Positions 3,370 to 28,790 of a stretch of 32,000 nucleotides of DNA are shown here, in pieces. This DNA is from an uncultured Erysipelotrichaceae bacterium. Its GTDB lineage: Bacteria > Bacillota_I > Bacilli_A > Erysipelotrichales > Erysipelotrichaceae. Location of the stretch: the NCBI GenBank assembly GCA_942493105.1, contig OW818668.1, positions 1,860,001 through 1,892,000 on the forward strand, written 5' to 3'. Positions within the stretch are counted from its first letter, which is position 1. Every line of letters begins with the position of its first letter. The notes under the pieces were generated by a model. It was not told the DNA's origin and made no database searches. It worked only from the letters and a program-made list of their open reading frames with translations. The position numbers and the translations under genes are program-made.

Positions 3370-4815
3370 CTATTTTACTGCGAGTTCAACGACCCGATAG
3401 GCCCCATGATACACTTTGTTTTTATGATTATTTATGATCGATTCATTCATTAATTCTAAATGACTCGCTTGATTCAGCAATAGATCCATCATTTGGTTAG
3501 CCAAGTCAGGAGTTTCACACTCTATGGTTCCATCACCGATTTCACTGGAGTGGATTGCACCCCAAGCTTCATGCCCCCCTACTCTTTTAACAAACAATTT
3601 AGGAATTGGGTAAAATGCCAATTCACTCGGTTTTGTGACCAAAAGATCGCTTGATCTCATCAGTAAGTTCGTAGAGTAGACAGCCGCATAAATATCTTTA
3701 TGGTAGAACACGTGTATTCCAAAGACATCGTTGTCGATGGCTTGATGTGTAAATTCCTGAGTTTTTTCCCAATCATCAAAATGCAAGATTGCTGTTTGTT
3801 CAATTGTGGGTACTTTTTTCTTTAGTGATTCCCAAACATGAAGATGATCTCCAATATTGAGATATAGGGTTGCCTTATTGGATTGAACCGATGGAAGTAA
3901 GTTTTGGATCATGGCAGCATAGAAATCACTTTGAGCTCCTGCTCCACCTACCGTCATCAGGATCCTTTTAGATTTTCCTAAGTGAAGTCGATTTAAACGT
4001 TGTTTTGTATCATCTTCTAAGTTAACAACCAACTCATGATCGATGTAGTGACCGGTATAAACCAAATCAGCATCACCCATTGGAGTTTGAATCTTTTTTC
4101 CATTCATGCCTTTTAGAGTCTTGTATCCAAAATAAGAGGATGGGGTCTGAACGGTATGGATGCTTCCTTCGGAAAGATGTAGCGCCATAGGCCAGTTATC
4201 TGGAATCGCATTGACGACATGTTTCATGCCGGCATGAATGGCAGCCTGAGCAGGCCAAACATGCGTTGCAACAAAGGGGATCGTTTGTAGCAGATCACGA
4301 TATATTGGTACCATCAACTCCGCCATCTTCTGATCGGACGCATTGTAGCTTAATGCTTTGAATCCATCATAATTCAATGGTTCCCAATAAAATCGATTAA
4401 ACAAGGGATACTTCTGAGACCATCTTGATCCCATTGAATATAGCCCATTCAAATGTGAGATGATTTTGCCTCCCGTGGTGGTTTTAAATGAAGGTAAATC
4501 AAACCAATATGGCGTATAGCCCATCGCATGCGCACATGAGGCAATGGCCATCGAAATACGGTAGTGTCCATAGCCCATTCTAATGTTTCCAACGATCAGG
4601 GGTTTATCAGAACCAAGTGTCAACACTTGATCAGATAGCACCAAATTTTTGACATTAAAGTAAGGATACAAAACTTTATTTTCTTCTTCAGCAAGATGAT
4701 ATATCTGTTTAGAATCATCACCAAATTTCCTTGTTAACTTGTCAGCATTCTTTTCTGCCTTTTTTATAACGGCTTGCGTCATCGTATTGTTAAATATTGA
4801 TTTATGCTTTTCCAT
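3370..4815 (-). CDS. GT-B fold glycosyltransferase-like protein, MGDG-synthase/UgtP (GT28)-like
   Basis: 481-aa ORF. The N-terminal G-x-GH motif (GNIRMGYGHYRISMAIA) resembles UgtP NYGNGHVQVAK. The central glycine loop is LMTVGGAGAQ and the C-terminal motif is LLVTKPSELAFYP (compare ITKPGGITLTEA). The start ATG overlaps the TAA stop of the upstream alpha-galactosidase gene (TAATG). Confidence 0.5.
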   Translation of the reverse strand: MEKHKSIFNNTMTQAVIKKAEKNADKLTRKFGDDSKQIYHLAEEENKVLYPYFNVKNLVLSDQVLTLGSDKPLIVGNIRMGYGHYRISMAIASCAHAMGYTPYWFDLPSFKTTTGGKIISHLNGLYSMGSRWSQKYPLFNRFYWEPLNYDGFKALSYNASDQKMAELMVPIYRDLLQTIPFVATHVWPAQAAIHAGMKHVVNAIPDNWPMALHLSEGSIHTVQTPSSYFGYKTLKGMNGKKIQTPMGDADLVYTGHYIDHELVVNLEDDTKQRLNRLHLGKSKRILMTVGGAGAQSDFYAAMIQNLLPSVQSNKATLYLNIGDHLHVWESLKKKVPTIEQTAILHFDDWEKTQEFTHQAIDNDVFGIHVFYHKDIYAAVYSTNLLMRSSDLLVTKPSELAFYPIPKLFVKRVGGHEAWGAIHSSEIGDGTIECETPDLANQMMDLLLNQASHLELMNESIINNHKNKVYHGAYRVVELAVK

Positions 4816-16102: not shown

Positions 16103-16372
16103 ATGAAAAAATTGGTATTAGTTTTATGTGCATTTTTATTGGCAAGTTGTAGTGATGTAAAAAATAATCCAATAATTGAGAAACCAGTTGTTGAGAAACC
16201 AGTTGTTGAGAAACCAGTTGTTGAAACTGTAAGTCAAAGTAATGCTGTTCGTAAAGCAAAAGTCTATTTAGAAATTTCTGCATATTCAAGAAAAGGATTG
16301 ATTGCGCAATTGGAGTATGAAGGATTTACGAATGAACAGGCCATCCACGGTGTTGATTCTACTGGATTATAA
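16103..16372 (+). CDS. Lipoprotein with Ltp-like domain (phage superinfection-exclusion lipoprotein family)
   Basis: 89 aa with SD aaggagga. It has a signal peptide with a lipobox (LCAFLLASC), an (EKPVV)x3 linker and a C-terminal segment, AVRKAKVYLEISAYSRKGLIAQLEYEGFTNEQAIHGVD. That segment matches the 'host cell surface-exposed lipoprotein' Ltp repeat pattern. Confidence 0.7.
   Translation: MKKLVLVLCAFLLASCSDVKNNPIIEKPVVEKPVVEKPVVETVSQSNAVRKAKVYLEISAYSRKGLIAQLEYEGFTNEQAIHGVDSTGL
16178..16222 (+). repeat. Perfect 15-nt tandem repeat x3 (gagaaaccagttgtt) encoding EKPVV x3 in the lipoprotein linker
   Basis: Read directly. Units are 16178-16192, 16193-16207 and 16208-16222, followed by a partial fourth unit (gaaac). 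Confidence 0.95.
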
Positions 16373-16667: not shown

Positions 16668-19352
16668 ATGTCACTATCGTGGAATGAAATACAGGATAAT
16701 GCCATTGTCTTTTCGAAACGATGGTCAACTGCAAGTGATGAAAAATCTGAAGCACAATCATTTCTCAATGAATTATTCTCTGTTTTTGGAGTAGACAGAA
16801 AAAGAGTTGGAACATTTGAATATAATACACATCCTAATGACAAAAGTCATTTCATTGACTGTTTTTGGCCAGGTAGAATTATTATTGAAATGAAAAGCAA
16901 AGGAAAATCACTCGATAGGGCATACTCGCAAGCAAAACAATATGCATTTGAGATTAAATCAGATGAGGATTTACCACAATTTATTATGGTTTGTGATTTC
17001 GATCGAATTCACATTTACAACTTGATAACAAACCAAAACTGGGAATTTCAAGTTAAGGATTTGAAAAAGAACGTGAAGAAACTCTCAATTCTCACTGATC
17101 AAGCAACAAAATATAACTTTTTTGTTGATCAAGAGTTGAATACTAAGGCCGCATACAAAATGGCTTTATTGCATGATGAGTTAAAAAGAAACAAATACGT
17201 CGGCCATGACTTGGAAGTCTACCTTGTAAGACTTCTATTCTGTTTATTTGCTGATGATTCTGGCATATTCCCGCACAATTCATTTTACGATTATATCAGT
17301 AAGACTCAGAGCAACGGATCTGATTTGTCTGGAAGATTAGCTGTATTCTTTCAAACTCTAAATACAGACTATGAGTACAGACAATCATCGCTTAGCGATG
17401 AACTAAAGAACTTCCCTTACGTTAACGGAGGACTATTTAGCAAACCGTTGACTTTGCCTGCATTTAGTTCAAAAACAAGAGATATCCTACTTGAGTGTTC
17501 ATCCTTCGATTGGTCCAAAATTTCGCCATCTATTTTTGGCTCTATGTTTCAAGGTGTACTTGATGAAACTCAAAGAAGATCATTAGGTGCTCATTACACA
17601 AGCGAGCAAAATATCCTAAAAGTTATAAAGCCATTATTTCTAGACAATCTTTATCTTGAGTTCGAAAAAGTAAAACATAACATAAAATCTCTAGATGCTT
17701 TTCACCAGAAACTCGGCAAGTTGACTTTTTTCGATCCTGCTTGTGGTTGTGGTAATTTTCTCATCATCGCATATCGAGAATTAAGAATACTAGAGCTTGA
17801 AGTACTAAAAATGAAAATTAACGATAATCAAATGGGTTTCATCGAAATGTGGCAAGATAACATTATTGTTAATGTAGATCAATTTTTCGGCATAGAGTCA
17901 GAAGATTTCCCATGTGAAATTGCCAAAGTTGGAATGTGGCTAATGGACCATCTAATGAATAATATCATCTCCGATTACTATGGTCTTCCATTTTCTAGAT
18001 TACCATTAAAGAAAGGAGCAACTATAATTCACGGAAATGCTTTAAGACTTGATTGGGACAATTCCTTTAATAACATCAAGTTTGATTTTATCATTGGAAA
18101 TCCTCCATTTATTGGAAAAAAATATCAGAATTCTGATCAGAAGAATGATATGAGAATGGTTTTCGGAACAGATTTCTTAGGTGTTGGAAATCTAGATTAT
18201 GTATCTGCTTGGTATAAAAAAACAACTGAATACATGAACAAATTAACAAAAGCAGCCTTCGTATCAACTAATAGTATTGTTCAAGGCGAACAAGTACCAT
18301 ATTTGTGGAAACCGTTATTCAATGAAGGAATTCACTTTGATTTCTGCTATAGAACATTTGAGTGGAAAAATGATGCTAAACTTAACGCCGCAGTACATTG
18401 TGTGATTATAGGATTCTCTAAAAGTGAAAATGTAACTGAAAAATATATTTTTGATGATGTAAATATCAAAATAGTCGAGAACATTAACCCTTATCTAAAT
18501 GATGGGCCCACTGTATTTCTTGAGAATCGATCAAATCCAATATCAAAAGTTAATAAACTAGTTTACGGGAGTTTTGCGCTTGATAATGGAAATTATACTA
18601 TTTCTGAAGACGAATTCACTGAGTTCATAAATAAGGAGCCATATTCACAAGATTTTCTACGACTCTTTATTGGATCAGAGGAGTTCATCAATAACAAAAA
18701 AAGATTCTGTATCTGGTTGAAAGATGCCGATATTGATATTATCCAAAAATGCCCAACTATTATTGATAGAATTAGGAAAGTAAAGGAATGGAGATTAAAA
18801 AGTAATAGAAAGGAAACCAGGTCTGCTGCTGATTTTCCAAGTTTATTCGCAGAAATTCGGCAACCAAAAACAGATTATTTAGCTATTCCAATAACTAGTT
18901 CAGAGCGCCGAAAATATATCCCAATAGGATATCTAAGGGCTAATGTAATTGCCAGTAACCACTTACTAGTATTACCAAATGCATCATTATACGATTTTGC
19001 AATACTTACTTCAGCCATGCATATGGCTTGGGTTAAAACTGTAGCTGGTCGGTTGAAAAGTGATTATAACTATTCAGCAAGAATCGTGTATAATAATTTC
19101 CCGTGGCCTAATTCTAGTAAAGAGCAAATAGATGCAATTTCGTTACTTGGTGAGAGTATTTTACGAGTTCGAGCAAGTTTTACAAACAAGACTCTAGCAG
19201 CATTATATGACCCGTTATTTATGCCTGAAATTTTAATGCAGGCACATTTAAAACTAGACCGTGCGGTTGATAAACTATATGGTAAGACTTTTGAAAGTGA
19301 TGAATCTCGGGCTTCGTATCTTATGATGCTTTATGACAAGTTGATCAAATAG
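16668..19352 (+). CDS. MmeI-family type IIL restriction-modification enzyme (fused endonuclease, N6-adenine methyltransferase and specificity domain)
   Basis: 894 aa. The N-terminus MSLSWNEIQDNAIVFSKRW..SDEKSEAQSFLNELFSVFG is very close to the MmeI N-terminus as I recall it. The nuclease motif D-x9-E-x-K is present (FIDCFWPGRIIIEMK). Methyltransferase motif I is FFDPACGCGNFLI and motif IV is IIGNPPFIG. A long C-terminal TRD follows. Confidence 0.9.
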   Translation: MSLSWNEIQDNAIVFSKRWSTASDEKSEAQSFLNELFSVFGVDRKRVGTFEYNTHPNDKSHFIDCFWPGRIIIEMKSKGKSLDRAYSQAKQYAFEIKSDEDLPQFIMVCDFDRIHIYNLITNQNWEFQVKDLKKNVKKLSILTDQATKYNFFVDQELNTKAAYKMALLHDELKRNKYVGHDLEVYLVRLLFCLFADDSGIFPHNSFYDYISKTQSNGSDLSGRLAVFFQTLNTDYEYRQSSLSDELKNFPYVNGGLFSKPLTLPAFSSKTRDILLECSSFDWSKISPSIFGSMFQGVLDETQRRSLGAHYTSEQNILKVIKPLFLDNLYLEFEKVKHNIKSLDAFHQKLGKLTFFDPACGCGNFLIIAYRELRILELEVLKMKINDNQMGFIEMWQDNIIVNVDQFFGIESEDFPCEIAKVGMWLMDHLMNNIISDYYGLPFSRLPLKKGATIIHGNALRLDWDNSFNNIKFDFIIGNPPFIGKKYQNSDQKNDMRMVFGTDFLGVGNLDYVSAWYKKTTEYMNKLTKAAFVSTNSIVQGEQVPYLWKPLFNEGIHFDFCYRTFEWKNDAKLNAAVHCVIIGFSKSENVTEKYIFDDVNIKIVENINPYLNDGPTVFLENRSNPISKVNKLVYGSFALDNGNYTISEDEFTEFINKEPYSQDFLRLFIGSEEFINNKKRFCIWLKDADIDIIQKCPTIIDRIRKVKEWRLKSNRKETRSAADFPSLFAEIRQPKTDYLAIPITSSERRKYIPIGYLRANVIASNHLLVLPNASLYDFAILTSAMHMAWVKTVAGRLKSDYNYSARIVYNNFPWPNSSKEQIDAISLLGESILRVRASFTNKTLAALYDPLFMPEILMQAHLKLDRAVDKLYGKTFESDESRASYLMMLYDKLIK

Positions 19353-19683: not shown

Positions 19684-19899
19684 TCAGATTTTGAAATCAT
19701 CATCAACATACTCTATTATATCCCCCGGTTGTACATTCAGATATTTACATAGTTTATCAATTACCTCAAGACTTACCATATCATTACTTGAGAACTTAGC
19801 AATTGTATTAAAAGCTAAGTTCAATTCTGTTCTTAAACTTGATTTGTTAATTCCACGTCTATTAAGTGTATCAAGTAATTTATAGTATTTGATTGCCAT
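19684..19899 (-). CDS. XRE/Cro-CI family small HTH transcriptional regulator
   Basis: 71 aa with SD AAGGAGGG. The sequence is typical of a small XRE protein (KLLDTLNRRGINKSSLRTELNLAFNTIAKFSSNDMVSLEVIDKLCKYLNVQPGDIIEY). It is divergent from the zinc-ribbon nuclease operon. Confidence 0.85.
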   Translation of the reverse strand: MAIKYYKLLDTLNRRGINKSSLRTELNLAFNTIAKFSSNDMVSLEVIDKLCKYLNVQPGDIIEYVDDDFKI

Positions 19900-19942
19900 A
19901 ATATTCCCTCCTTAATTCATTATACTTCAAATCTATCGAAAA

Positions 19943-20031
19943 CTATAGAAATTATTGTTGACAATAAAGAAAATCTAGTGTAATCTATATTTATAGAGAG
20001 ATATTCTATACAATGTTATAGATATTCTATA
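19943..20031. promoter_or_regulatory. Divergent promoter region with a dense array of TATAGA/TCTATA half-sites (candidate XRE operators)
   Basis: TTGACA lies at 19958-19963, then a 17-nt spacer ending in tg, then taatct at 19981-19986. Half-sites: tataga 19944-19949, tctata 19983-19988, tataga 19992-19997, tctata 20005-20010, tataga 20017-20022, tctata 20026-20031. Two pairs form palindromes, tataga-N7-tctata and tataga-tat-tctata. Confidence 0.5.
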
Positions 20032-20043
20032 AAAGGAGGGTTT

Positions 20044-21543
20044 ATGACCCAATCACTTAAGGGAATGAGTTTCAAGGTTTGGTGTATTGAGAATCATAAG
20101 GATGAATTGCTTAGTCAGTGGCATCCTACAAAGAATGTAAGGTTGTCTCCGGATTCGATTACTTTCGGTAGTAATAAGAAAGCTTGGTGGGTGTGTTCAA
20201 AGGGACATGAGTGGGAAGCTACCATCTCCTCTCGTACCACGAATCAGCGTGGCTGCCCGTATTGCAAGGGAGTAAAAGTCATCGTCGGAGAAACCGATCT
20301 AGCCACTACTCATCCTACCCTTGCTTTAGAATGGCATCCGACTAAAAATTCGCTGACTCCTAAAGAACTCTCCGCCGGAAGCAACAAGAAAGTTTATTGG
20401 CTGTGTCCTAACGGCCACACCTACCTCAGTTCCCCATCCATAAGGTTACAGCCTTGTGGATGCTCGGTTTGTGCCAGGAAGATTGTAGAGGTAGGGGTCA
20501 ACGATCTGTTGTCTAGAAGCCCTGAGATCGCCTCAGAATGGCATCCGTCTCGTAACGGAGATTTGAAGCCTGAGATGGTGATGTTTCAAAGCAATAAGAA
20601 AGTTTGGTGGCTTTGTAAGAACGGCCATGAGTGGGAAGCTTCTCCAAACTCTAGACAAAAGAATGGATGTCCTATCTGTTACGGAAACACCCACTTCTCA
20701 CTTCGCGAGAAAACTGTCTTCTATTACGTCAAGAAACACTTTCACAACGCCATCAGCAGTTATCAGTTCAAGAGCGATCGTAAGCTTGAGATCGACATCT
20801 TTATTCCGGGGCTCAACATCGGAATTGAATACGATGGAACCTATTACCATCAGGATCCCTTAAAGGACCAACTCAAGGAAACGCTTATTACTGAAGAAGG
20901 CATTCAGCTCATCCGGATCAGAGAACCGAAAACGCCTGAAGTCAAAGACAACAGCACCGTGATCCAGCTCTTCGACCTTAGTGTCGAAGACCTCACACGA
21001 GCCATTAGAGAGCTTTTGGCGCTGCTTGAGAATCTATCTCATACTTCTCTAAGAAACGTCGAAGTCGTCATCAAAGACGATCTAAAGGACATCTATGCCA
21101 TGATGGATGATACGATCATCGAAGGATCGATCGCAGCCAAGAATCCGGCCGTTGCTTACGAGTGGCATCCTACCAAGAACCTGCCTCTAACCCCGGAAAA
21201 GGTCTACGCCAACTCTAAGATGATCGTGTGGTGGTTGTGTCCATTAGGGCATGAATACCAATCCAACGTCAATAACCGAAACAATGGAAAACGTTGCCCC
21301 TTCTGTTACGGGACTCACAGTTTGTTAGTTGGGGAAAACGATCTTCTTTCTCAAAGACCGAAACTGGCCGCTCAGTGGCACCCCACAAAGAACCTTCCTT
21401 TGATGCCGGATCAGATCCGCGCCTACAGTTCAAAGAAGGCTTGGTGGCTATGTGAGCACGGTGAAGAATGGGAATCGAAGATCAGTTCACGAGGCGATAC
21501 TTGCCGATGCAAAAACAAAGCCAATTTTTTTGGAAAATTTTAG
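20044..21543 (+). CDS. Protein with five treble-clef zinc-ribbon repeats (DUF4379-like) flanking a Vsr/DUF559-like PD-(D/E)xK endonuclease core
   Basis: 499 aa with SD aaaggaggg. Five repeats follow the pattern WHP(T/S)(K/R)N..P......S.KK.WW.C..GHEW......R....GCP.C, at aa 22-75, 93-144, 162-213, 370-422 and 441-489. The central aa ~217-295, REKTVFYYVKKHF..KLEIDIFIPGLNIGIEYDGTYYHQ..EEGIQLIRIRE, fits the E..D..IE.DG..H..R layout of Vsr-like/DUF559 nucleases. Confidence 0.75.
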   Translation: MTQSLKGMSFKVWCIENHKDELLSQWHPTKNVRLSPDSITFGSNKKAWWVCSKGHEWEATISSRTTNQRGCPYCKGVKVIVGETDLATTHPTLALEWHPTKNSLTPKELSAGSNKKVYWLCPNGHTYLSSPSIRLQPCGCSVCARKIVEVGVNDLLSRSPEIASEWHPSRNGDLKPEMVMFQSNKKVWWLCKNGHEWEASPNSRQKNGCPICYGNTHFSLREKTVFYYVKKHFHNAISSYQFKSDRKLEIDIFIPGLNIGIEYDGTYYHQDPLKDQLKETLITEEGIQLIRIREPKTPEVKDNSTVIQLFDLSVEDLTRAIRELLALLENLSHTSLRNVEVVIKDDLKDIYAMMDDTIIEGSIAAKNPAVAYEWHPTKNLPLTPEKVYANSKMIVWWLCPLGHEYQSNVNNRNNGKRCPFCYGTHSLLVGENDLLSQRPKLAAQWHPTKNLPLMPDQIRAYSSKKAWWLCEHGEEWESKISSRGDTCRCKNKANFFGKF

Positions 21544-21586
21544 GAAGTGTTTTGTTTATTGCGTATAAAGAACTTGGAGGTTCAAT

Positions 21587-21835
21587 ATGGGTCAACTAAA
21601 TATTGAAGTCACCTTTATAGAAGGTCCAAATAAGGGTCAAGTCTGGATTCACAATAATCTTTCTCTACCCGATATCTTCGAGTTTTACGAAAGCCGTACC
21701 CTTAGATTTATAAAAGAAACAGATGCTTTTGTATTCGATGAAAGTCACAGGATAGAACTCAGCGAATTCATGTATACCGTTATCAAGAAGATTGATCCTT
21801 TTATTGAAACGGTATCCGATCCTCACAAGCACTAA
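21587..21835 (+). CDS. Hypothetical small protein, co-oriented with the zinc-ribbon nuclease gene
   Basis: 82 aa with SD ggagg 7 nt upstream, starting 43 nt after the previous stop. A terminator follows. I recognise no family. Confidence 0.55.
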   Translation: MGQLNIEVTFIEGPNKGQVWIHNNLSLPDIFEFYESRTLRFIKETDAFVFDESHRIELSEFMYTVIKKIDPFIETVSDPHKH

Positions 21836-21900
21836 ATCAGATTATAGTTCCGTCTTATTCCCATTGTGAATATCCATCCATTATCCAAGTCTCAATAAAT

Positions 21901-21931
21901 GTCCCATCGTAATAATGGGGCTTTTCCTTTT
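21901..21931 (+). terminator. Rho-independent terminator of the zinc-ribbon nuclease / 82-aa operon
   Basis: gtcccat (21901-21907) pairs with atggggc (21915-21921), followed by ttttcctttt. Confidence 0.6.
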
Positions 21932-22065
21932 GACAATAAAACACTGGCTTTCAAGAACGAACAATAATGACTGTCTTATCTAAATGGGTTGATTTAATCC
22001 TTTTGGAATGAGTGTAAATAGTTATTACTGACATTTTCTAAAAAAACTGAATTAAATTTTAGAGT

Positions 22066-22150
22066 TTGCGAAGTGGATTATACCGCTTAAAATAAGGGAA
22101 TAATCAAAATCATAAATTCAAAACTCAATGGGACCATTTGGACCCGTAAA
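22066..22150. repeat. Cassette copy A (conserved flanks + hairpin GGGACC-attt-GGACCC)
   Basis: gtggattataccgcttaaaataagggaataatcaaaatcataaattcaaaactcaatGGGACCatttGGACCCgtaaa. It aligns with copies B and C. Relative to them it lacks about 25 nt between gtggat and tataccgc. Confidence 0.8.
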
Positions 22151-22211
22151 CCAACTAAAATAATTATTTTGTATAGTGCGTAAATTTGCATTGTCCCGTT
22201 ACTCAGTAATT

Positions 22212-22247
22212 ACGGGAACCAAAGGTCCCCGTCAGCTTTTTGCTTTT
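22212..22247 (+). terminator. Hairpin ACGGGAACC-aaa-GGTCCCCGT + T-rich tail (terminator-like), copy 1
   Basis: Read directly, followed by cagctttttgcttttg. The identical 25-nt string ttacgggaaccaaaggtccccgtcag recurs at 24060-24084. No plus-strand gene lies upstream, so it may end a small RNA. Confidence 0.4.
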
Positions 22248-23115
22248 GAAAATCAGAAATTCCTTTATTTATAAGGGTTTTTTCAATGTCACTTCTCTCA
22301 AAAATCATTTCAAAAAAAAGATATATTACTTCGAATTAGAACACAAAAAGACGTTATGCAAGTGAAATCTTTTCAAAATAGGTCGATTTATTACTCAAAT
22401 GTGAAAGTAACTCTTATATAGCAATACCAATTGAAACATGGGTTTGACTTTCAGACGTAATTATCACTACCAAGATCAATTAAAAGGTTAATTTTCGGCA
22501 TTTTTACACCTTGATCGATTGGAATTGGGACTTTTTCCCCAACCTAGCCTCCTGGAATACACTATATATAGGGTACTCTACTTTTGAGGTAAAAGTCACC
22601 GATCAAAATTTGAAAAGTTGATTATACGTCTATTTTACTGAAGATTTTCAATGTCTACATGTTGTACCCATAGTTTTTTGCTTTTCTGTTTTTATGGGTA
22701 CAGCTTTTTACTTAGTCTAAATGTTCAGAAAAGCCTTTATTATAACCGTATTAACTACTTTTCGGCTTGCCGAAAATGTTCAAAAAGCGTGGGTTGTACC
22801 CAACGCCTTATCCTGCTTACTAATTTCCAAAAAATATTGATTATCGTATTTCTTGGAAAAACTCATTTTCTGCAGATTTTGATGAGTATTTGGATCTTTC
22901 CCAAAACAATCATAAATATCCTGTTTCATTAGTGAAAACTTATTGAGAACTTGTAACTTGCCAATTCCATTATCACAACTTTTACTCTGAGTATTTAGAT
23001 ACTATAAACGAATATCTCTTGTGCCTTCTATGTCGAAATGTGATATAGAACCTATCCACTGTTGAATACATACATCCACCCTCTGAAGACACTCAAATAA
23101 ATCAAACATACTCAT

Positions 23116-23228
23116 AAAAGTGAACGTGAGTTCATGGGTTTTCAAATTGGGTTATAGGCTTAGAATAAAGAGATAATCGAAATTAAACATGCAAAACTTA
23201 GCGGGAACAGAGTGTTCCCGTAAATGAC
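23116..23228. repeat. Cassette copy B (more diverged; hairpin CGGGAACA-gag-TGTTCCCG)
   Basis: aaaagtgaacgtgagttcatgggttttcaaattgggttataggcttagaataaagagataatcgaaattaaacatgcaaaacttagCGGGAACAgagTGTTCCCGtaaatg. The hairpin lies 45 nt past the stop of the minus-strand HTH gene. Confidence 0.7.
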
Positions 23229-23264
23229 TAAATATCGGTAAATCACTTGGTATAAATTATGCTT

Positions 23265-23690
23265 TTAGACTATGTTAATGAAACCATCAAGAATCTTTAC
23301 TTCACTTTTCTCAATCCCAAGATATGCAGCTTTTAAACTAGTGTTCATTAGGTGGTACTCAGAGTATTTGGTGATTTCACCCGCTTCATCACGCTCAATC
23401 TTTTCTATGCATTTCAGCAAAGTGACATAAAGTCCTCTATCTGCCAAATTCGAATAATTCAATCTGTACACACCACGGCTTATTTTCGCTATGCATGGAT
23501 CATTCAAACTTAGTCTGGTATATAGTTGGCTAATTAAGCTTTGGGAGCATTTCAACTCTCTCGCAACTTCAGTTTGAGACATCATTATGGCTCCATTTTT
23601 ATCAGTGTTTTTCTTTAGTAAATCAACAAGCGCTTGAGAAGTTTCTCTGCTTTTATATAGTTCTCTTTTATAGATGGGTAAATTGATCAT
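23265..23690 (-). CDS. Hypothetical HTH/winged-helix DNA-binding protein
   Basis: 141 aa with SD agaggtg. The probable HTH is MSQTEVARELKCSQSLISQLYTRL. It is the only convincing ORF between 21.84 and 24.6 kb and lies between cassette copies B and C. Confidence 0.6.
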   Translation of the reverse strand: MINLPIYKRELYKSRETSQALVDLLKKNTDKNGAIMMSQTEVARELKCSQSLISQLYTRLSLNDPCIAKISRGVYRLNYSNLADRGLYVTLLKCIEKIERDEAGEITKYSEYHLMNTSLKAAYLGIEKSEVKILDGFINIV

Positions 23691-23869
23691 TGTGTCACCT
23701 CTTATTCTTCATCCATTATATATACTCCTTAGGAGTTTATCAGTGAAACCTTAATCGATCTATATAATCAGAGTACTAACTAATTACCGTTCTTGGAAAT
23801 GATGCAATCATTCTGTATAGATTCCAGAAAAGTAGAGATAAATCATTATCGAAACAGTCTAACATTTTG

Positions 23870-23980
23870 AAAAGTGGATAGAGAATCTGTGTAGTCGAAT
23901 TTGCATTATACCGCTTAAAATAAGGAAATTATCAATATTGAATACTCAAAAACTCAGCGGGTTGGATCCAACCCGTAATT
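23870..23980. repeat. Cassette copy C (hairpin CGGGTTGG-ATCC-AACCCG, perfect palindrome)
   Basis: gaaaagtggatagagaatctgtgtagtcgaatttgcattataccgcttaaaataaggaaattatcaatattgaatactcaaaaactcagCGGGTTGGATCCAACCCGtaattt. Confidence 0.8.
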
Positions 23981-24061
23981 TCATTTATATCGAGGATTTA
24001 TCTCAATGTTTACTTTATCATGTTAATCAATCGTTAAAAACTGTCGATATTTACTGTATTT

Positions 24062-24090
24062 ACGGGAACCAAAGGTCCCCGTCAGGTTTT
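24062..24090 (+). terminator. Hairpin ACGGGAACC-aaa-GGTCCCCGT, copy 2 (weaker T tail)
   Basis: The hairpin is identical to the one at 22212-22232. It is followed by caggttttcgag. Confidence 0.3.
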
Positions 24091-24287
24091 CGAGCTCCGA
24101 TGTTTAAAATACACTTAAAAACAAAGGGAATTATTAATATTCATATCTGTAATTTTGTTTTCATATTTTATTTGTATTTATTTTCAAACGCAATTTTGTA
24201 GGATCAATTCAACTTATCAGAACATCAACACAATTTCTACACAGGTTTTTAATATAGTGATGATGTCGAAAGACAAGGAGGTTATCA

Positions 24288-24383
24288 ATGCTTGGTTTAG
24301 CACTAGCAAATTGCATTCATTCCTGTGGGCTTCACGGGCAAGAATTAGATGCTTGTATTCAGATGATGATCAAAGGATTCTAA
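24288..24383 (+). CDS. Possible 31-aa Cys-containing small peptide (MLGLALANCIHSCGLHGQELDACIQMMIKGF)
   Basis: Below the ORF-track size cutoff. A consensus SD, aaggagg, lies at 24275-24281, 6 nt before the ATG at 24288. I recognise no family. Confidence 0.25.
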   Translation: MLGLALANCIHSCGLHGQELDACIQMMIKGF

Positions 24384-24662
24384 CAAACTTACTGCTTCGA
24401 ATTTTGGTGTAATTTAATTTCTTCATCCCTTTTCCCCCTTAAATGGTCCTTGAATTAACACAACCAAGCTTATTGACTAACTACGAAAAAGAGTTTATGC
24501 AGGATAAACTCTTTTTCATATTTGAAAGGAATCACTAACATTCTTAATCAATAAAAAAGCTAGGATTTGATTGCAGTAGTAAAGTAAAAGTAGACATTAA
24601 GAAAAGACAAGTTCTTTGATTAAAGTCTACTTTTTTCATATTCTATAAACAGGAGGAGACGT

Positions 24663-24779
24663 ATGGGAAGAAATAAAGGCGGAACAAACAGAAGATATAG
24701 TGTGGAAGACAAATTAGAGATTATAAAGCGGTATATAGATCAACATGAATCTCAAAGTGATCTGTGGATGAGAGCGTAA
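24663..24779 (+). pseudogene. Truncated IS3-family OrfA-like (HTH transposase) N-terminal stub
   Basis: SD aggagg lies at 24652-24657. The product is MGRNKGGTNRRYSVEDKLEIIKRYIDQHESQSDLWMRA*. The N-terminal 33 aa look like an IS3/IS150 OrfA. The reading frame ends where the IS256-like element begins. Confidence 0.5.
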
Positions 24780-26110
24780 AATGGTATGTGGGAATTCGAA
24801 ATTAATTAAAATAAAGGGACATATCTACTAGGATAAAGTTACGACACTAACCCAAGGAGAGTTGCCCATGTCCAATTCTACCTTAGATTTATTCAAATTA
24901 CTATCCTCGCCAGAGGAATTACGGGAGTCAATTCGCCAGATGGTTCAAGCAGCGATGAATGATCTGATGAAAGTAGAGTTGGATTCTGTCTTGGGTTATC
25001 AGAAATACAGCCGTAAAACTGAAGGCAGTGATAACTGCCGAAACGGAAGTTATCAGCGCACTTTCGATACTGAATATGGGTCTGTCGAACTGAACGTCCC
25101 CAGAGATCGAAAGAATGAATTCAATACTGCTCTGTTTGATGCTTACCAACGACGCAGTCATTGGTTGGAAGACATGGTGATCGCACTCTATCAGACAGGA
25201 TCTACGACCTCTGAGATCTGTGAGCTGATTGAGAAGTTGTATGGCCACCACTACACTAAGTAGACCATCAGTAATATTACCGAAGCGACTCAGGAGCTGG
25301 TGGAGCGCTTCAATCAGAGAGCGCTCAAGACGCGTTATAGTATCCTGTATATCGATGCCATCTTTACGAAGATTCGCCGTTCTACGGTCTCTAGTGAGGC
25401 GGTATACCTGGTTTTAGGTATTGATGAGGAAGGAAAACGAGAGATTTTGAGTTATTGTATAACGTCTCACGAATCCAGTGAGATCTGGAAGGATGTCTTT
25501 GAAGATCTCAGGAACCGAGGTGTGAAAGAAGTCTTACTGGGCGTCGTGGATGGATTGAAGGGATTAGATGAATCCTTCCTGAGTTATATCCCGAAGGCAG
25601 ATATCCAGCGTTGCACGGTTCACTTTATGCGTAATATCTGTAAGCGCGTTAGAGTTCAGGATCGTCTTGAGGTGGCCACAAATCTGAAAGAAATCTTCGC
25701 CAGTCATTCTGAAGCTCAAGCCTTAGAACGCTGTGAAGCGATGAAACGGAAGTGGAAGAAAGTCTATCCAAAGTTATTCGAAGATTACCTCAACCGGTCA
25801 AATATGTTTACTTACTTCAAGTATCCAAAGATGATTTGGGGATCAATCCGAACTACCAACAAGTTGAAAACACGAATAAGCAGCTGAAGCGTCAAATTAA
25901 GAAGAAGGAACAGTTTCCTAACGAAGGCTCCGCTGAATGCTTTCTGGTCAACTTATTTACGATCCAAAATGAGAAGCTGTCTGGTAGAATCATGAAGGGA
26001 TTTGAATTGGCTTACCCACGATTATCTGAAATGTTTGAAGAAAGAAGTGATTATTCTGGAAGTTCCCTATGAAAAAACACAACTTTCTTTACACTCCCAT
26101 TTGCACACTT
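24780..26110 (+). mobile_element. IS256-family insertion sequence, inactivated (boundaries approximate)
   Basis: It contains the Mutator/IS256-type transposase reading frames. The candidate imperfect terminal inverted repeats are gtaaaatggtatgtg (left, ~24775-24790) and acactcccatttgcac (right, ~26091-26106). They match only partially, so the ends are uncertain. Confidence 0.55.
24868..26072 (+). pseudogene. IS256-family (Mutator-type) transposase pseudogene: one in-frame TAG and one frameshift
   Basis: The three track ORFs 24862-25263, 25300-25887 and 25752-26072 join into one transposase (..NGSYQRTFDTEYGSVELNVPRDRKNEF.. / ..YSILYIDAIFTKIR..VYLVLGIDEEGKREIL.. / ..VENTNKQLKRQIKKKEQFPNEGSA..). 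The first two are in the same frame, separated by TAG at 25261-25263. The third needs a 1-nt shift near 25860 (IRTTN|QVENTN). Confidence 0.85.
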
Positions 26111-27922: not shown

Positions 27923-28790
27923 CTATTGTTTGGCTTTATCTCTTGAAAGTTCCTCCCACCTGGTTATAATCACGTCCATATATCTCGGATCCAGTTTCAT
28001 CGCATAGCATTTCCGCTCTAATCGAAATGCAACTATGAGTGTTGAGCCAATGCCTGCGAAGGGTTCGTAGACGAGTTGACCCTTTATGCTAGAGTTCTTA
28101 ATCAGCTTTCCAATGAGCGGGATGCGCTTCATCGTTGGATGCAGATTACTTTTAAGCGGCTTATTTTCATAGAGGACGGTAGATTGCTGATCATCCATGA
28201 TCTTCTTGAGGATCTCAACGAGTTCTTCTTTCTTCATCTTCTCAATACTTTGAGTTTCGTCAAACACGGTGGCCTGGATCCGGTCATCCACGAATTAATG
28301 ACCTACCCCTTCCTTCCAACCATACAAAATCGGCTCATTTCTCAAGTGGTAATCATGCCGGTTGAGGTTGAACGAATTTTTCAACCAAATCAAATTCTTG
28401 GAGAATTTGAATCCGGCTTTCTGGAAGGCATAATCGAAGCTCAGTCGCTCAACATCACTATGTAAGACATAGATGACTCCATCGATCTTCAGGTGTTCAT
28501 ATGCGTGCGTATACATGGCTAAGATGAAATGATAGAAGTTGTTGCTGTACATGTGATCGTTGAGGATCTCATTATTCTTCCTTTGGCCATTTTTGAACAT
28601 CTTGTGGTAGTCAATCTTGTTTTCGTAGTTGACGTTGTATGGAGGATCAGTAACGATCAAGCCAGCCAGCAATCTTTACATCAGCATCAATTCATCGTTT
28701 GGATCAGTGCTATCGCCATACATCAACCGATGCTCACCGAGCTGATAGATACAGCCTCTTTTTGAATTCGGTTCCTCTATTGAGTAAATA
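27923..28790 (-). pseudogene. Beta-class (DPPY..FxGxG order) DNA N6-adenine/N4-cytosine methyltransferase pseudogene, two in-frame TAA stops and no start codon
   Basis: One continuous minus-strand frame reads ..KRGCIYQLGEHRLMYGDSTDPNDELMLM*RLLAGLIVTDPPYNVNY...ILYGWKEGVGH*FVDDRIQATVF..HPTMKRIPLIGKLIKNSS..VYEPFAGIGSTLIVAF..LDPRYMDVIITRWEE. The stops are at 28676-28678 and 28295-28297. No ATG lies upstream of KRGCIYQLGEHRL. Confidence 0.8.

What the first reader, a model, noticed from the sequence alone, without database searches (positions are those of the whole stretch)
22066..23980. Three copies of a ~85-115-nt cassette whose central hairpin covaries (structure conserved, stem sequence changed)
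Copies A (22066-22150), B (23116-23228) and C (23870-23980) share flanks: ..(g)ttata(cc/gg)(g)ctta(a/g)aataa(g/a)g..at(a/t)atc(a/g)a..aaaact(c/t)a.. then a hairpin, then cccgtaa(a/t). The hairpin stems differ while keeping their pairing: GGGACC/GGACCC in A, CGGGAACA/TGTTCCCG in B, CGGGTTGG/CCAACCCG in C. Between B and C, four stem positions changed with full compensation. That argues for selection on structure, either an RNA element or a protein-bound cruciform/dyad, rather than simple duplication. There are two readings. (i) On the minus strand, each hairpin is followed by (c/a)t(t/a/g)agtttt, which is terminator-like, and then about 50 nt later by TTGAT(T/A)-N19-TATAAT (degenerate in B). That makes a portable terminator+promoter cassette. 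Copy C would then drive the HTH gene through a ~200-nt leader, and copy B's hairpin would terminate it. (ii) On the plus strand, A and C each continue into a second hairpin plus T-tract, giving ~170-200-nt candidate small RNAs. I cannot match the motif to any RNA family I know. No RT, Cas, TnpB/IscB or recombinase gene is adjacent.
Basis: seen in the sequence. Interest (0 to 1): 0.7.

Follow-up and report, generated by a model that had tools for sequence, protein, structure and literature searches.

The report
Repeated terminator-plus-promoter cassettes in island
A ~2.5-kb, almost gene-free remnant of an integrated element in a low-GC bacterial chromosome carries at least six copies of a ~90-135-nt repeat, an AT-rich promoter-like box joined to a GC-rich terminator hairpin, which most likely acts as an ordinary regulatory and recombination cassette and not as a new structured RNA.

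Summary
A, B and C are true direct copies (3 pattern hits, 0-0.3 expected by chance). The "second hairpins" after A and C are inverted partial copies (A', C'), and a degenerate inverted copy D lies at 22664-22775. All hairpins keep a CGGG/CCCG foot with a changing interior: 88.9% of cells paired, four pairs with changes on both sides, 0 of 500 shuffles as good.

Every copy, including D with its unrelated hairpin, keeps an A-run 3-5 nt before the hairpin. That makes the hairpin an intrinsic terminator on the opposite strand. B's hairpin lies 43 nt after the HTH gene's stop.

Close relatives are mosaic, with junctions at the cassettes. One variant carries a ToxN module flanked by two direct cassette cores.

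No Rfam match turned up, and no real copy in the genome, metagenome, viral, plasmid or phage collections. The family is lineage-restricted.

Best reading (0.45): terminator plus promoter cassettes that also serve as recombination points, functionally like the PeSL cassettes of T4-type phages. The promoter strand is unresolved, because the plus-strand -10 (TAnAAT) is the better conserved, so antisense or convergent small RNAs remain a live rival. Stem covariation is what terminators, or template switching, would give. Modest interest.

The parts
22040..22156 (+). Cassette A. AT-rich box 22062-22119, containing plus-strand TTGCGA-16-TAAAAT (22066-22093) and minus-strand TTGATT-19-TATAAT (22107-22077). 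A-run 22120-22123. Imperfect hairpin H1A 22129-22146.
22208..22297 (-). Cassette A', the inverted partner of A. Hairpin H2A 22212-22232 (ACGGGAACC-AAA-GGTCCCCGT, one A.C mismatch) with a plus-strand T-run at 22237-22241, followed by the cassette-like AT-rich box. TTGAAA-18-TATAAG was read by eye on the plus strand at about 22245-22274.
   Evidence: D12; nhmmer 22270-22208, E = 0.0012
22664..22775 (-). Cassette D, inverted and degenerate. An unrelated hairpin GTACCCATA...TATGGGTAC at 22664-22701, a plus-strand T-run at 22705-22709, and the core CCTTTATTATAACCGTATTAAC at 22734-22755. It is the junction of mosaicism in L003 and L005.
22782..22806 (-). Canonical minus-strand intrinsic terminator (GCGTTGGGT-ACA-ACCCACGC followed by TTTTT) abutting D. 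It lies outside the cassette core, yet relatives carry a different hairpin here (GGGGTG...CACCCC) with identical flanks.
23112..23228 (+). Cassette B. Plus-strand TTTTCA-16-TAGAAT (23139-23166). Minus-strand TCGATT-18-TATAAC (23180-23151). A-run 23193-23196. Hairpin H1B 23202-23220, which lies 43 nt past the stop of the HTH gene on the minus strand.
23265..23690 (-). 141-aa HTH protein gene, the only intact gene between cassettes. It has its own promoter-like site at 23743-23715.
23866..23986 (+). Cassette C. Plus-strand -10 TAAAAT at 23906-23911. Minus-strand TTGATA-19-TATAAT (23925-23895). A-run 23938-23942. Hairpin H1C 23948-23965, a perfect 18-nt palindrome with a GGATCC centre.
24058..24150 (-). 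Cassette C', the inverted partial partner of C. Hairpin H2C 24062-24082 with a plus-strand T-run at 24087-24090. The box beyond it is only weakly cassette-like.
   Evidence: D12; nhmmer 24113-24055, E = 0.0021

Best explanation
The repeats are a lineage-specific family of composite regulatory cassettes in a decayed integrated-element or defence island.

Each cassette has two halves:
- a GC-rich hairpin that works as an intrinsic transcription terminator on the strand opposite to the cassette's written orientation (hairpin, 3-5 nt, then a T-run);
- directly behind it, a 60-100-nt AT-rich box with promoter-like hexamers that restarts transcription for the next small unit.

Because the same ~100-nt sequence recurs at unit boundaries, it also gives homologous recombination a foothold. 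Modules can then be swapped, inserted or lost between relatives.

The stem covariation is what is expected of a terminator hairpin whose pairing is kept while its sequence turns over. The turnover could come from selection for pairing, from template switching within the quasi-palindrome, or from both.

Shown: the repeats, their hairpin pairing, the conserved T-run geometry, B's position after the HTH stop codon, and mosaic junctions at cassettes.

Inferred: terminator activity, promoter activity and its strand, and the recombination role.
For: - **Terminator geometry is conserved.** Across 10 aligned copies (six in the window, plus L015-B, L015-D, L003-D and L003-F), an A-run followed within 3-5 nt by the hairpin holds in nine, including D-type copies whose hairpin is unrelated; in L015-D the A-run lies inside the hairpin loop.
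- **Scan results.** The terminator scan flags H1A, H1B and H1C on the minus strand. It finds 7 terminator-like sites in 21500-24900 against 1.6 in shuffles.
- **Position of B.** H1B is the only terminator-like hairpin after the HTH stop codon, 43 nt downstream on the minus strand.
- **Homologous modules.** H1 read on the minus strand and H2 read on the plus strand are the same module, TTACGGG...CCCGYYARSTTTT (I9, 45, 61, 62).
- **Pairing is maintained with turnover**.
- **Tidy transcription units on this reading:**
  - C, then the HTH gene, then B's hairpin;
  - B, then the 49-aa ORF region, then the canonical terminator at 22787-22806;
  - A', then a decayed reading frame (...WNTLYIGY, kept in L005 and L015), then D's hairpin;
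  - C', then a 31-aa ORF with an AAGGAGG ribosome-binding site, then the terminator at 24479-24523.
- **Mosaicism at cassettes.** L005 and L003 are 100% identical to the window to the right of about 22811. To the left, L005 is 54-95% identical and L003 becomes unrelated, so both break at D.
- **Flanked module.** In L003 a 1.8-kb ToxN module is flanked by direct copies of the cassette core (1818-1845 and 3618-3645).
- **Contig ends.** By my count, 7 of 12 ends of the short metagenome contigs L003-L008 fall in or next to a cassette, the 22787-22806 terminator or an indel point, as expected at population-level junctions.
- **Functional precedent.** PeSL cassettes of T4-type phages are conserved over about 100 bp, combine a sigma-70-like promoter with a stem-loop terminator whose stem is "generally GGGG...CCCC", flank orphan genes, and mediate modular shuffling (PMC2839356, PMC4122927).
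- **DNA-level route to paired stems.** Template switching can create and maintain paired stems without stepwise compensation (PMC8794818). C and L005-A are loop-less perfect palindromes. The A/A' pair shares variants within each genome: TTAC and AAA(T) loops in the window, TCAC and ATA(T) loops in L005.
Against: - The minus-strand promoter has a 19-nt spacer (18 in B), outside the usual 16-18. Its -10 is good only in A and C.
- The promoter scan picks only the plus-strand hexamers of A and B, and overall finds no more promoter-like sites than shuffles do (11 against 14.3).
- The plus-strand -10 (TAnAAT) is intact in all six better-preserved copies and is the best conserved hexamer. That favours transcription toward the hairpin.
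- The T-run starts 4-6 nt after the stem, not 0-2 nt.
- In the A/A' and C/C' pairs the two terminators are in "crossed" order: each transcript passes the other hairpin first. That order is more natural for convergent small RNAs.
- Most units flanked by cassettes have no intact gene.
- In L003, D and F point the "wrong" way for this reading relative to toxN.
- No expression data.
- Only a handful of independent copies, from one lineage.
Confidence: 0.45

Rival explanations
1. Plus-strand (cassette-orientation) promoters make small non-coding RNAs. In the A/A' and C/C' pairs, two convergent promoters each produce an RNA of about 140-160 nt that runs through both hairpins and ends at the partner's hairpin and T-run. 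The result is a fully complementary sense/antisense pair. Solo copy B would make an RNA antisense to the 3' end of the HTH mRNA.
For: - TAnAAT is intact in all six better-preserved copies (A, B, C, L015-B, L015-D, window D), while the minus-strand -10 decays.
- The scan lists TTGCGA-16-TAAAAT (A) and TTTTCA-16-TAGAAT (B) at 9 of 12 matches.
- The crossed order of the terminators in the pairs is explained naturally.
- The predicted RNAs fold better than shuffles: z = -3.5 for A and -2.1 for C on the plus strand, -2.3 and -2.6 on the minus strand.
- In L003, D points toward the ToxN module, whose 1-kb upstream stretch has G>C skew on that same strand.
Against: - The plus-strand -35 is poor in C, L015-B and the D copies, and there is no extended -10 TG.
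- B has no plus-strand terminator before running 425 nt antisense through the HTH gene.
- The conserved A-run before solo hairpins (B, D, F) has no role on this strand.
- No Rfam match even at E up to 10.
- The long-range H1-H2 pairing of the window's A is not kept in L005.
- The cassette is no better conserved between orthologues than its neighbours: B is 73-78% identical to L015, within the range of the surrounding noncoding DNA (65-90%) and the HTH gene (72-98%). L015-B carries a stem-breaking change.
Confidence: 0.25
2. A selfish non-autonomous repeat of MITE or REPIN type. The A/A' and C/C' inverted pairs are the elements, with terminal inverted repeats that contain the hairpins. Solo copies are half-elements. 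An enzyme encoded elsewhere in the genome would move them.
For: - Two tail-to-tail inverted pairs separated by 55-75 nt.
- The A pair folds into one long hairpin.
- The two arms of a pair share variants within a genome.
- Contig breaks occur at the repeats.
Against: - All copies lie within 2.2 kb, with none in the other 30 kb of the window.
- No target-site duplication is visible and no clean empty site was found.
- The spacers are not conserved between A and C.
- No true copy was found in the species-representative genomes, the metagenome contigs, the viral contigs, plasmids or phages.
- No matching IS end. The nearby IS256 remnant shares nothing with the cassette.
Confidence: 0.1
3. Recombination sites of an unrecognised cassette-exchange system, analogous to integron attC or to reiterated att sites. 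The hairpins, with conserved feet and variable tops, would be recognised as folded DNA by a recombinase encoded outside the window. Modules such as HTH and ToxIN would be the mobile cassettes.
For: - Direct repeats A, B and C are spaced 0.75-1.07 kb apart, the size of gene cassettes.
- The ToxN module in L003 is flanked by direct cassette cores.
- Junctions of mosaicism fall at cassettes.
- Structure is conserved while sequence varies.
Against: - No integrase or recombinase in the 32 kb other than an IS256 pseudogene.
- No RYYYAAC/GTTRRRY core sites.
- Mixed orientations of the copies.
- Copies are 60-80% identical over about 100 nt, which is enough for ordinary homologous recombination.
- The hairpins carry T-runs, as terminators do.
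Confidence: 0.07
4. Operators or dyad sites bound by the neighbouring 141-aa HTH protein.
For: Two cassettes flank the HTH gene, and each hairpin is a dyad.
Against: - The dyad sequences differ between copies, so one sequence-specific protein could not read them all.
- No 9-mer or longer from the cassette cores recurs in the HTH gene's own promoter region.
- HTH homologues in L014 (60% identical) and L078 (51% identical) have no cassettes around them.
Confidence: 0.03

Closest known systems
PeSL (promoter-early stem-loop) cassettes of T4-type phages (Arbiol et al. 2010, PMC2839356; Comeau et al. 2014, PMC4122927)
   Same: A composite intergenic repeat conserved over about 100 bp. It joins an AT-rich promoter region to a G/C-rich stem-loop that acts as a terminator or attenuator. 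PeSL stems are "generally GGGG...CCCC"; these are CGGG...CCCG. Several copies cluster in a hyper-variable region next to small orphan genes. Differences between close relatives map to the cassettes, and a module is flanked by two direct copies.
   Different: No sequence homology. The host is a low-GC bacterial chromosome (a remnant of an integrated element), not a lytic T4-type phage. In PeSLs the stem-loop usually lies within or overlapping the promoter; here it lies about 25-30 nt outside it. Inverted tail-to-tail pairs are not a described PeSL feature. Promoter and terminator activity and mini-circle formation were shown by experiment for PeSLs and are untested here. The promoter strand is ambiguous here.
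Ordinary rho-independent (intrinsic) terminators
   Same: A GC-rich stem of 7-9 bp, a loop of 2-4 nt, a downstream T-run and an upstream A-run in some copies. Position after a gene's stop codon (B). Pairing is kept while sequence drifts.
   Different: The T-run starts 4-6 nt after the stem. The hairpin is embedded in a 90-135-nt repeat with a conserved AT-rich box. Stem position 6 is unpaired in 4 of 8 copies.
REPIN/REP doublets and MITEs such as Correia or RUP elements
   Same: Short palindromic units that occur as inverted doublets 55-75 nt apart and can fold into a long hairpin. Some such elements carry promoters or terminators.
   Different: No dispersal, no target-site duplication, no RAYT or transposase partner seen, no conserved GTAG-type foot. 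The copies are confined to one 2.2-kb stretch.
3'-overlapping type I toxin-antitoxin and cis-antisense RNA loci of Firmicute prophages (txpA/ratA, bsrG/SR4, par of pAD1; from my own knowledge, not looked up here)
   Same: Convergent promoters with overlapping 3' ends and shared terminator hairpins. Located in prophage remnants. Repeated sequence shared by the two RNAs.
   Different: No conserved small hydrophobic ORF. The 34-aa ORF across A (22191-22087) is cut to 12 codons in C.
Integron attC sites
   Same: Direct repeats between gene-sized cassettes. Structure conserved with variable sequence. Toxin-antitoxin modules among the cargo.
   Different: No R''/R' core sites, no IntI integrase, mixed orientations, and T-runs typical of terminators.

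Membership tests
PeSL-type composite promoter/terminator cassette | G/C-rich stem-loop able to terminate or attenuate transcription | tested here: met
   Met at sequence level only. Hairpins were flagged as terminator-like. Pairing is kept in 88.9% of cells. The A-run/T-run geometry is conserved in nine of the 10 aligned copies.
PeSL-type composite promoter/terminator cassette | Strong sigma-70-like promoter (-35, 16-18 nt spacer, -10) with an AT-rich upstream region in the same repeat | tested here: inconclusive
   On the minus strand, TTGAT(T/A) with an 18-19-nt spacer and TATAAT only in A and C. On the plus strand, TAnAAT is conserved but the -35 is weak. The scan finds no excess of promoter-like sites (11 against 14.3).
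PeSL-type composite promoter/terminator cassette | Multiple copies flanking small orphan genes in a hyper-variable region; indels and replacements between close relatives map to the cassettes | tested here: met
   At least six copies within 2.2 kb. The L003 and L005 junctions fall at D. The ToxN module in L003 is flanked by direct cores.
PeSL-type composite promoter/terminator cassette | Resides in a T4-type phage genome | tested here: not met
   The window is a bacterial chromosome with galK, galM, alpha-galactosidase, DegV and GGDEF genes. No match in the phage collection.
PeSL-type composite promoter/terminator cassette | Demonstrated promoter and terminator activity and mini-circle formation | not testable with these tools
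   Needs reporter fusions and inverse PCR.
Any curated RNA family (Rfam 15), including tracrRNA and known Firmicute sRNAs | Covariance-model score at or above the gathering threshold | tested here: not met
   No hit at gathering thresholds in the whole window. In 21800-24300 at E up to 10, only chance-level hits at E of 0.3 or worse.
tracrRNA (considered because of TTAAAATAAGG...TTATCAA) | Anti-repeat complementary to a nearby CRISPR repeat; cas9 in the locus | tested here: not met
   No CRISPR-like array among the repeat families, and no ORF longer than 894 aa, which is an MmeI-type enzyme. Under the plus-strand promoter reading the would-be anti-repeat is not even transcribed.
MITE or IS end | Terminal inverted repeats, target-site duplication, dispersed copies, similarity to the ends of an IS | tested here: not met
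   Inverted pairs exist. No duplication was seen at their borders. There are no copies elsewhere in the window or in the public collections. The whole source genome could not be scanned.
REP/REPIN | Hundreds of dispersed palindromes with a conserved tetranucleotide foot, plus a RAYT gene | tested here: inconclusive
   Doublet geometry is present. Dispersal is absent in the 32 kb. The RAYT gene and genome-wide copy number could not be tested.
Integron attC | R'' (RYYYAAC) and R' (GTTRRRY) core sites, uniform orientation, an IntI integrase or an attC cluster | tested here: not met
   By inspection the core sites are absent and the orientations are mixed. No tyrosine recombinase in the window.
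Type I toxin-antitoxin | Conserved small hydrophobic toxin ORF with a ribosome-binding site, plus an overlapping antisense RNA | tested here: not met
   The 34-aa ORF across A and the 28-aa ORF across B share a tail only because the DNA is homologous. The frame stops after 12 codons in C, and there is no Shine-Dalgarno sequence.
Type III ToxI antitoxin RNA | Tandem 34-36-nt repeats directly upstream of a toxN/abiQ gene | tested here: not met
   The window has no toxN gene and no tandem array. ToxN occurs only in variant L003, with its own single 35-nt unit unrelated to the cassette.

The most novel reading that the evidence does not exclude
The cassettes are a dedicated module-exchange device of low-GC bacterial islands. 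The folded hairpins, with their conserved CGGG/CCCG feet and free tops, would be recognised as structure by a recombinase or replication-linked process not yet identified. Small defence or regulatory modules (ToxIN, HTH) could then be shuffled between elements, a Firmicute counterpart of integron attC or PeSL mini-circles. Alternatively, the inverted pairs encode a new class of convergent, fully complementary small-RNA pairs that act as a switch.
Probability: 0.1. Interest if true: 0.7.

Novelty: new member of a known kind. Interest (0 to 1): 0.3.

Why it matters
If the best reading holds, composite terminator/promoter repeats that insulate small modules and let them be swapped by homologous recombination are not limited to T4-type phages. 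They would also occur in integrated-element and defence islands of low-GC bacteria. That would help explain how small defence modules such as ToxIN move in and out of such islands.

It is also a cautionary case. Compensated stem changes in a repeated hairpin need not mean a novel structured RNA, because terminators and template switching produce the same pattern.

The family is tiny and lineage-restricted, most of the flanked units are decayed, and nothing here is surprising mechanistically. The practical value is modest.

Tried and rejected
- **Rfam.** Nothing at gathering thresholds in the window, nor in L001-L003. Only chance-level hits at E up to 10 across the region.
- **Species-representative genomes.** The 26-nt core pattern hit only two related Zambryskibacteria MAGs. 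Similarity is limited to about 30 nt of AT-rich core, with no cas9 or CRISPR array nearby and a terminator on the same strand. I judged it chance, or an unrelated small-RNA gene.
- **Metagenome contigs.** The composite pattern gave 51 hits. None has the upstream core or the hairpin context, so all look like chance.
- **Viral contigs.** Three scans gave chance hits or nothing.
- **Annotated phages and plasmids (blastn).** No match in phages, and one 29-nt chance hit in a Bacillus plasmid.
- **tracrRNA idea.** It rests on an 11-nt identity with the SpCas9 tracrRNA nexus region, recalled from memory. Rejected: no CRISPR array, no cas9, no nexus hairpin, no Rfam hit.
- **Lambda nut (boxA/boxB) idea.** Rejected because the loops are not conserved, the spacing is wrong, and the boxA resemblance needs three gaps.
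- **Type I toxin idea.** Rejected because the hydrophobic ORF across A is not kept in C.
- **HTH operator idea.** No shared motif with the HTH promoter, and no cassettes around the HTH homologues.
- **G.U wobble test for the functional strand.** Contradictory: the outer G.T pairs of H1 favour the plus strand, while the A.C mismatch in H2 favours the minus strand.
- **Base-composition skew.** Uninformative.
- **Search for more copies through neighbouring proteins.** The DUF4379 module recurs elsewhere without cassettes. The 82-aa protein is not on record.
- **Organism name.** Could not be recovered.
Full report
**Setting**

The window is a piece of a low-GC bacterial chromosome. The exact proteins are on record from a 2,032,407-bp NCBI contig. 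On the left are galactose and alpha-galactoside genes, a TetR regulator and membrane proteins. The middle holds a variable, defence-like stretch:
- an MmeI-family type IIG restriction-modification enzyme at 16668-19352;
- a DUF4379 zinc-finger protein at 20044-21543;
- a NERD-like protein.

To the right lie a split IS256/Mutator transposase (24862-25887), a GGDEF protein, methyltransferase-like ORF fragments (not scanned against any library), a glycosyltransferase and DegV.

The finding lies in 21848-24860. This ~3-kb stretch has only one convincing gene, a 141-aa HTH protein (23265-23690, minus strand). The module to its left (19697-21847) recurs at 85-89% nucleotide identity in other contigs, and the homology stops 12 nt after the stop codon of the 82-aa gene. 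The stretch with the repeats is therefore a separate unit.

Yes. The repeat finder returns the three copies (family D2) and a second two-copy repeat, D12, which is the "second hairpin" after A and C. A core pattern hits exactly three times against 0.29 expected, and a composite pattern three times against 0.00. The hairpins are as described, except that A's stem has an A.A mismatch and a T.G closing pair.

- A profile built from A, B, C and an orthologue of B finds the H2 hairpins plus their downstream flanks as inverted partial copies: 22270-22208 and 24113-24055, E about 1e-3. A/A' and C/C' are therefore tail-to-tail inverted pairs 55-75 nt apart.
- Comparison with relatives reveals a degenerate inverted copy D at 22664-22775, with an unrelated hairpin.
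- H1 read on the minus strand and H2 read on the plus strand are the same module, TTACGGG-stem-loop-stem-CCCGYYARSTTTT (I9, 60-62).

**Covariation**

I aligned eight hairpin modules in register: five from the window, two from L005 and one from L015.
- 88.9% of cells are paired.
- Four of nine pairs have changes on both sides (12 cells).
- The covariation score is 0.46 against 0.14 for shuffles, with 0 of 500 shuffles reaching it.
- The signal disappears when partners are slid by one column or more.
- Stem position 6 is unpaired in 4 of 8 modules.

Between paralogues the flanks are 59-76% identical, against 18-45% for the hairpin interior.

**Relatives**

The HTH protein has almost no relatives: 3 in the word-indexed search and 36 at E < 1e-3 among 1.8 billion representatives. 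Exact copies lie on six short metagenome contigs, L003-L008.
- L005 is 100% identical to the window from about 22811 to 23973 but only 54-95% identical to the left.
- L003 is 100% identical to the right of about 22811, about 60% identical across D, and unrelated beyond 22662.

Two independent mosaic junctions therefore sit at D and its adjacent terminator.

In L003 the replacing segment is a 1.8-kb ToxN/AbiQ module flanked by two direct copies of the cassette core, at 1818-1845 and 3618-3645.

L005 carries different hairpins at A (CGGGCCGATATCGGCCCG) and A' (CGGGGTCC-ATA-GGGACCCG). Both L005 arms have TCAC where both window arms have TTAC, so the two arms of a pair evolve in concert.

L015, at about 77% identity, has an orthologue of B with a stem-breaking change, a fragmented HTH gene, an intact D copy, and an IS3-type insertion where A and A' would be.

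By my count, seven of the twelve ends of L003-L008 fall in or next to a cassette, the 22787-22806 terminator or an indel point, as expected if populations branch there.

More distant HTH homologues sit convergent to a tyrosine integrase at the edge of integrated elements, with no cassettes: L014 (60% identical) and L078 (51% identical, right after tRNA genes). A terminator-like piece downstream of the L014 integrase matches window 22248-22283. The stretch is best seen as the decayed edge of an integrated element.

**Searches elsewhere**

- Rfam finds nothing.
- The core pattern hits only two related Zambryskibacteria MAGs among the species-representative genomes. The similarity covers 30 AT-rich nucleotides and I regard it as chance.
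- 51 metagenome hits and 5 viral hits are all chance by inspection.
- The annotated phage and plasmid collections give nothing.

The family is restricted to this lineage, so a larger covariation study was not possible.

**What the hairpin is**

In the ten-copy alignment, an A-run followed within 3-5 nt by the hairpin holds in nine copies, even where the hairpin itself is unrelated (D type); L015-D is the exception. On the opposite strand this reads hairpin, 3-5 nt, T-run, which is an intrinsic terminator.
- The scan flags H1A, H1B and H1C on the minus strand, and the region has 7 terminator-like sites against 1.6 expected.
- H1B is the only such hairpin after the HTH stop codon, 43 nt downstream.
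- A plain minus-strand terminator at 22787-22806, outside the cassette core and directly abutting copy D, shows the same behaviour. Relatives carry a different, equally paired hairpin there with identical flanks.

Compensated stem turnover is therefore a general property of terminators in this locus. It is not a mark of a special RNA.

Two hairpins, C and L005-A, are perfect 18-nt palindromes with self-complementary "loops" (GGATCC and GATATC centres). RNA-level selection has no reason to produce that, but template switching within a quasi-palindrome would, and it creates compensated stems in one step (PMC8794818). That point, and the concerted change of the A/A' arms, are inference.

**What the AT-rich box is**

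This is the weak point. The two strands compare as follows.

| Strand | -35 element | Spacer | -10 element |
|---|---|---|---|
| Minus | TTGATT, TCGATT, TTGATA (well kept) | 19, 18, 19 nt | TATAAT, good only in A and C |
| Plus | Weak (best: TTGCGA in A, TTTTCA in B) | 16 nt in A and B | TAnAAT, intact in six better-preserved copies |

The plus-strand TAnAAT is the best conserved hexamer of the cassette.

The minus-strand reading gives tidy units:
- C, then the HTH gene, then H1B;
- B, then the 49-aa ORF region, then the terminator at 22787-22806;
- A', then a decayed frame (...WNTLYIGY, shared with L005 and L015), then D's hairpin;
- C', then a 31-aa ORF with an AAGGAGG ribosome-binding site, then the terminator at 24479-24523.

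The plus-strand reading better explains the crossed order of the hairpins in the inverted pairs. It would give convergent, fully complementary RNAs of 140-160 nt whose predicted folds are better than shuffles, with z from -2.1 to -3.5. Wobble-pair asymmetry and base skew did not discriminate. I give the terminator-plus-promoter cassette 0.45 and the small-RNA reading 0.25.

**Comparison with known systems**

The closest functional precedent is the PeSL of T4-type phages. It is a composite repeat conserved over about 100 bp: a sigma-70-like promoter plus a stem-loop terminator, with stems "generally GGGG...CCCC". PeSLs cluster in hyper-plastic regions next to orphan genes, and recombination between copies inserts, deletes or replaces modules (PMC2839356, PMC4122927).

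The present cassettes share the architecture, the clustering, the junction behaviour and a module flanked by direct copies. They differ in five ways:
- the host is a bacterial chromosome, not a phage;
- there is no sequence similarity;
- the hairpin lies outside the promoter;
- there are inverted pairs;
- there is no experimental evidence.

They work like PeSLs but are not members of that family. The MITE/REPIN, integron attC, tracrRNA, type I and type III toxin-antitoxin, lambda nut and HTH-operator readings were each tested against their defining features and not met (see the membership table).

**Verdict**

The covariation does not call for a novel RNA or a protein-bound dyad. It is a new, lineage-restricted example of a known kind of element, of modest interest. 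The promoter strand and the recombination role remain to be shown by experiment.

Noticed in passing
L003:1909-3538 (variant of this locus; replaces the window to the left of 22662): A ToxN/AbiQ-family gene (PF13958) is preceded by TTGACT-17-TATAAT, a single 35-nt ToxI-like unit and a terminator. The 51%-identical relatives L068-L071 have three tandem units (L068 5843-5946). Upstream of that lies about 1 kb of GC-enriched noncoding DNA with internal repeats. It folds far better than shuffles (z = -5.1) and has no Rfam match. L068 also has about 450 nt of GC-rich noncoding DNA upstream of its ToxI array.
   Followed up: partly
window 19697-21847: A module of HTH_26 (71 aa), a DUF4379 protein with five treble-clef zinc fingers (499 aa, with internal DNA repeats D1, D3, D4 and D11) and an 82-aa ORF. 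It recurs at 85-89% nucleotide identity in unrelated contexts (L072-L077), next to a 1,200-aa protein and a PIN_12 protein. Homology ends 12 nt after the stop of the 82-aa gene. It looks like a mobile, defence-like module.
   Followed up: partly
window 24288-24383 and 24479-24523: A 31-aa cysteine-rich ORF (MLGLALANCIHSCGLHGQELDACIQMMIKGF) with a strong AAGGAGG ribosome-binding site, also called as a gene in L003. It is followed by a strong bidirectional terminator (AAAAAGAGTTTAT...ATAAACTCTTTTT).
   Followed up: no
window 24862-25887: An IS256/Mutator-family transposase split into two ORFs (133 and 195 aa), i.e. a pseudogene. Two adjacent minus-strand ORFs at 27923-28672 (122 and 125 aa) look by eye like a fragmented DNA methyltransferase; they were not scanned against any family library.
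   Followed up: no
window 23265-23690; L014 7523-8101; L078 297-776: The 141-aa HTH protein belongs to a very small family (36 hits at E < 1e-3 among 1.8 billion representatives) with no Pfam match. Its homologues sit convergent to a tyrosine integrase at the edge of integrated elements; in L078 this is directly after tRNA genes.
   Followed up: partly
L001 3004-3029 (-) and L002 492-517 (+), Candidatus Zambryskibacteria MAGs: GCTTAAAATAAGG..ATCAAAAT is followed about 45 nt later by a strong same-strand terminator (AAACCCGCC...GGCGGGTTTGTTTTT). It could be a small-RNA gene of about 75 nt. There is no Rfam match. The similarity to the cassette was judged to be chance.
   Followed up: partly
window 16166-16224: A 15-nt tandem repeat (AAACCAGTTGTTGAG, about 3 copies) inside the 89-aa ORF at 16103-16372.
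   Followed up: no
window 23948-23965; L005 (orthologue of 22129-22146): Two cassette hairpins are perfect 18-nt palindromes centred on restriction-type sites, GGATCC and GATATC.
   Followed up: no
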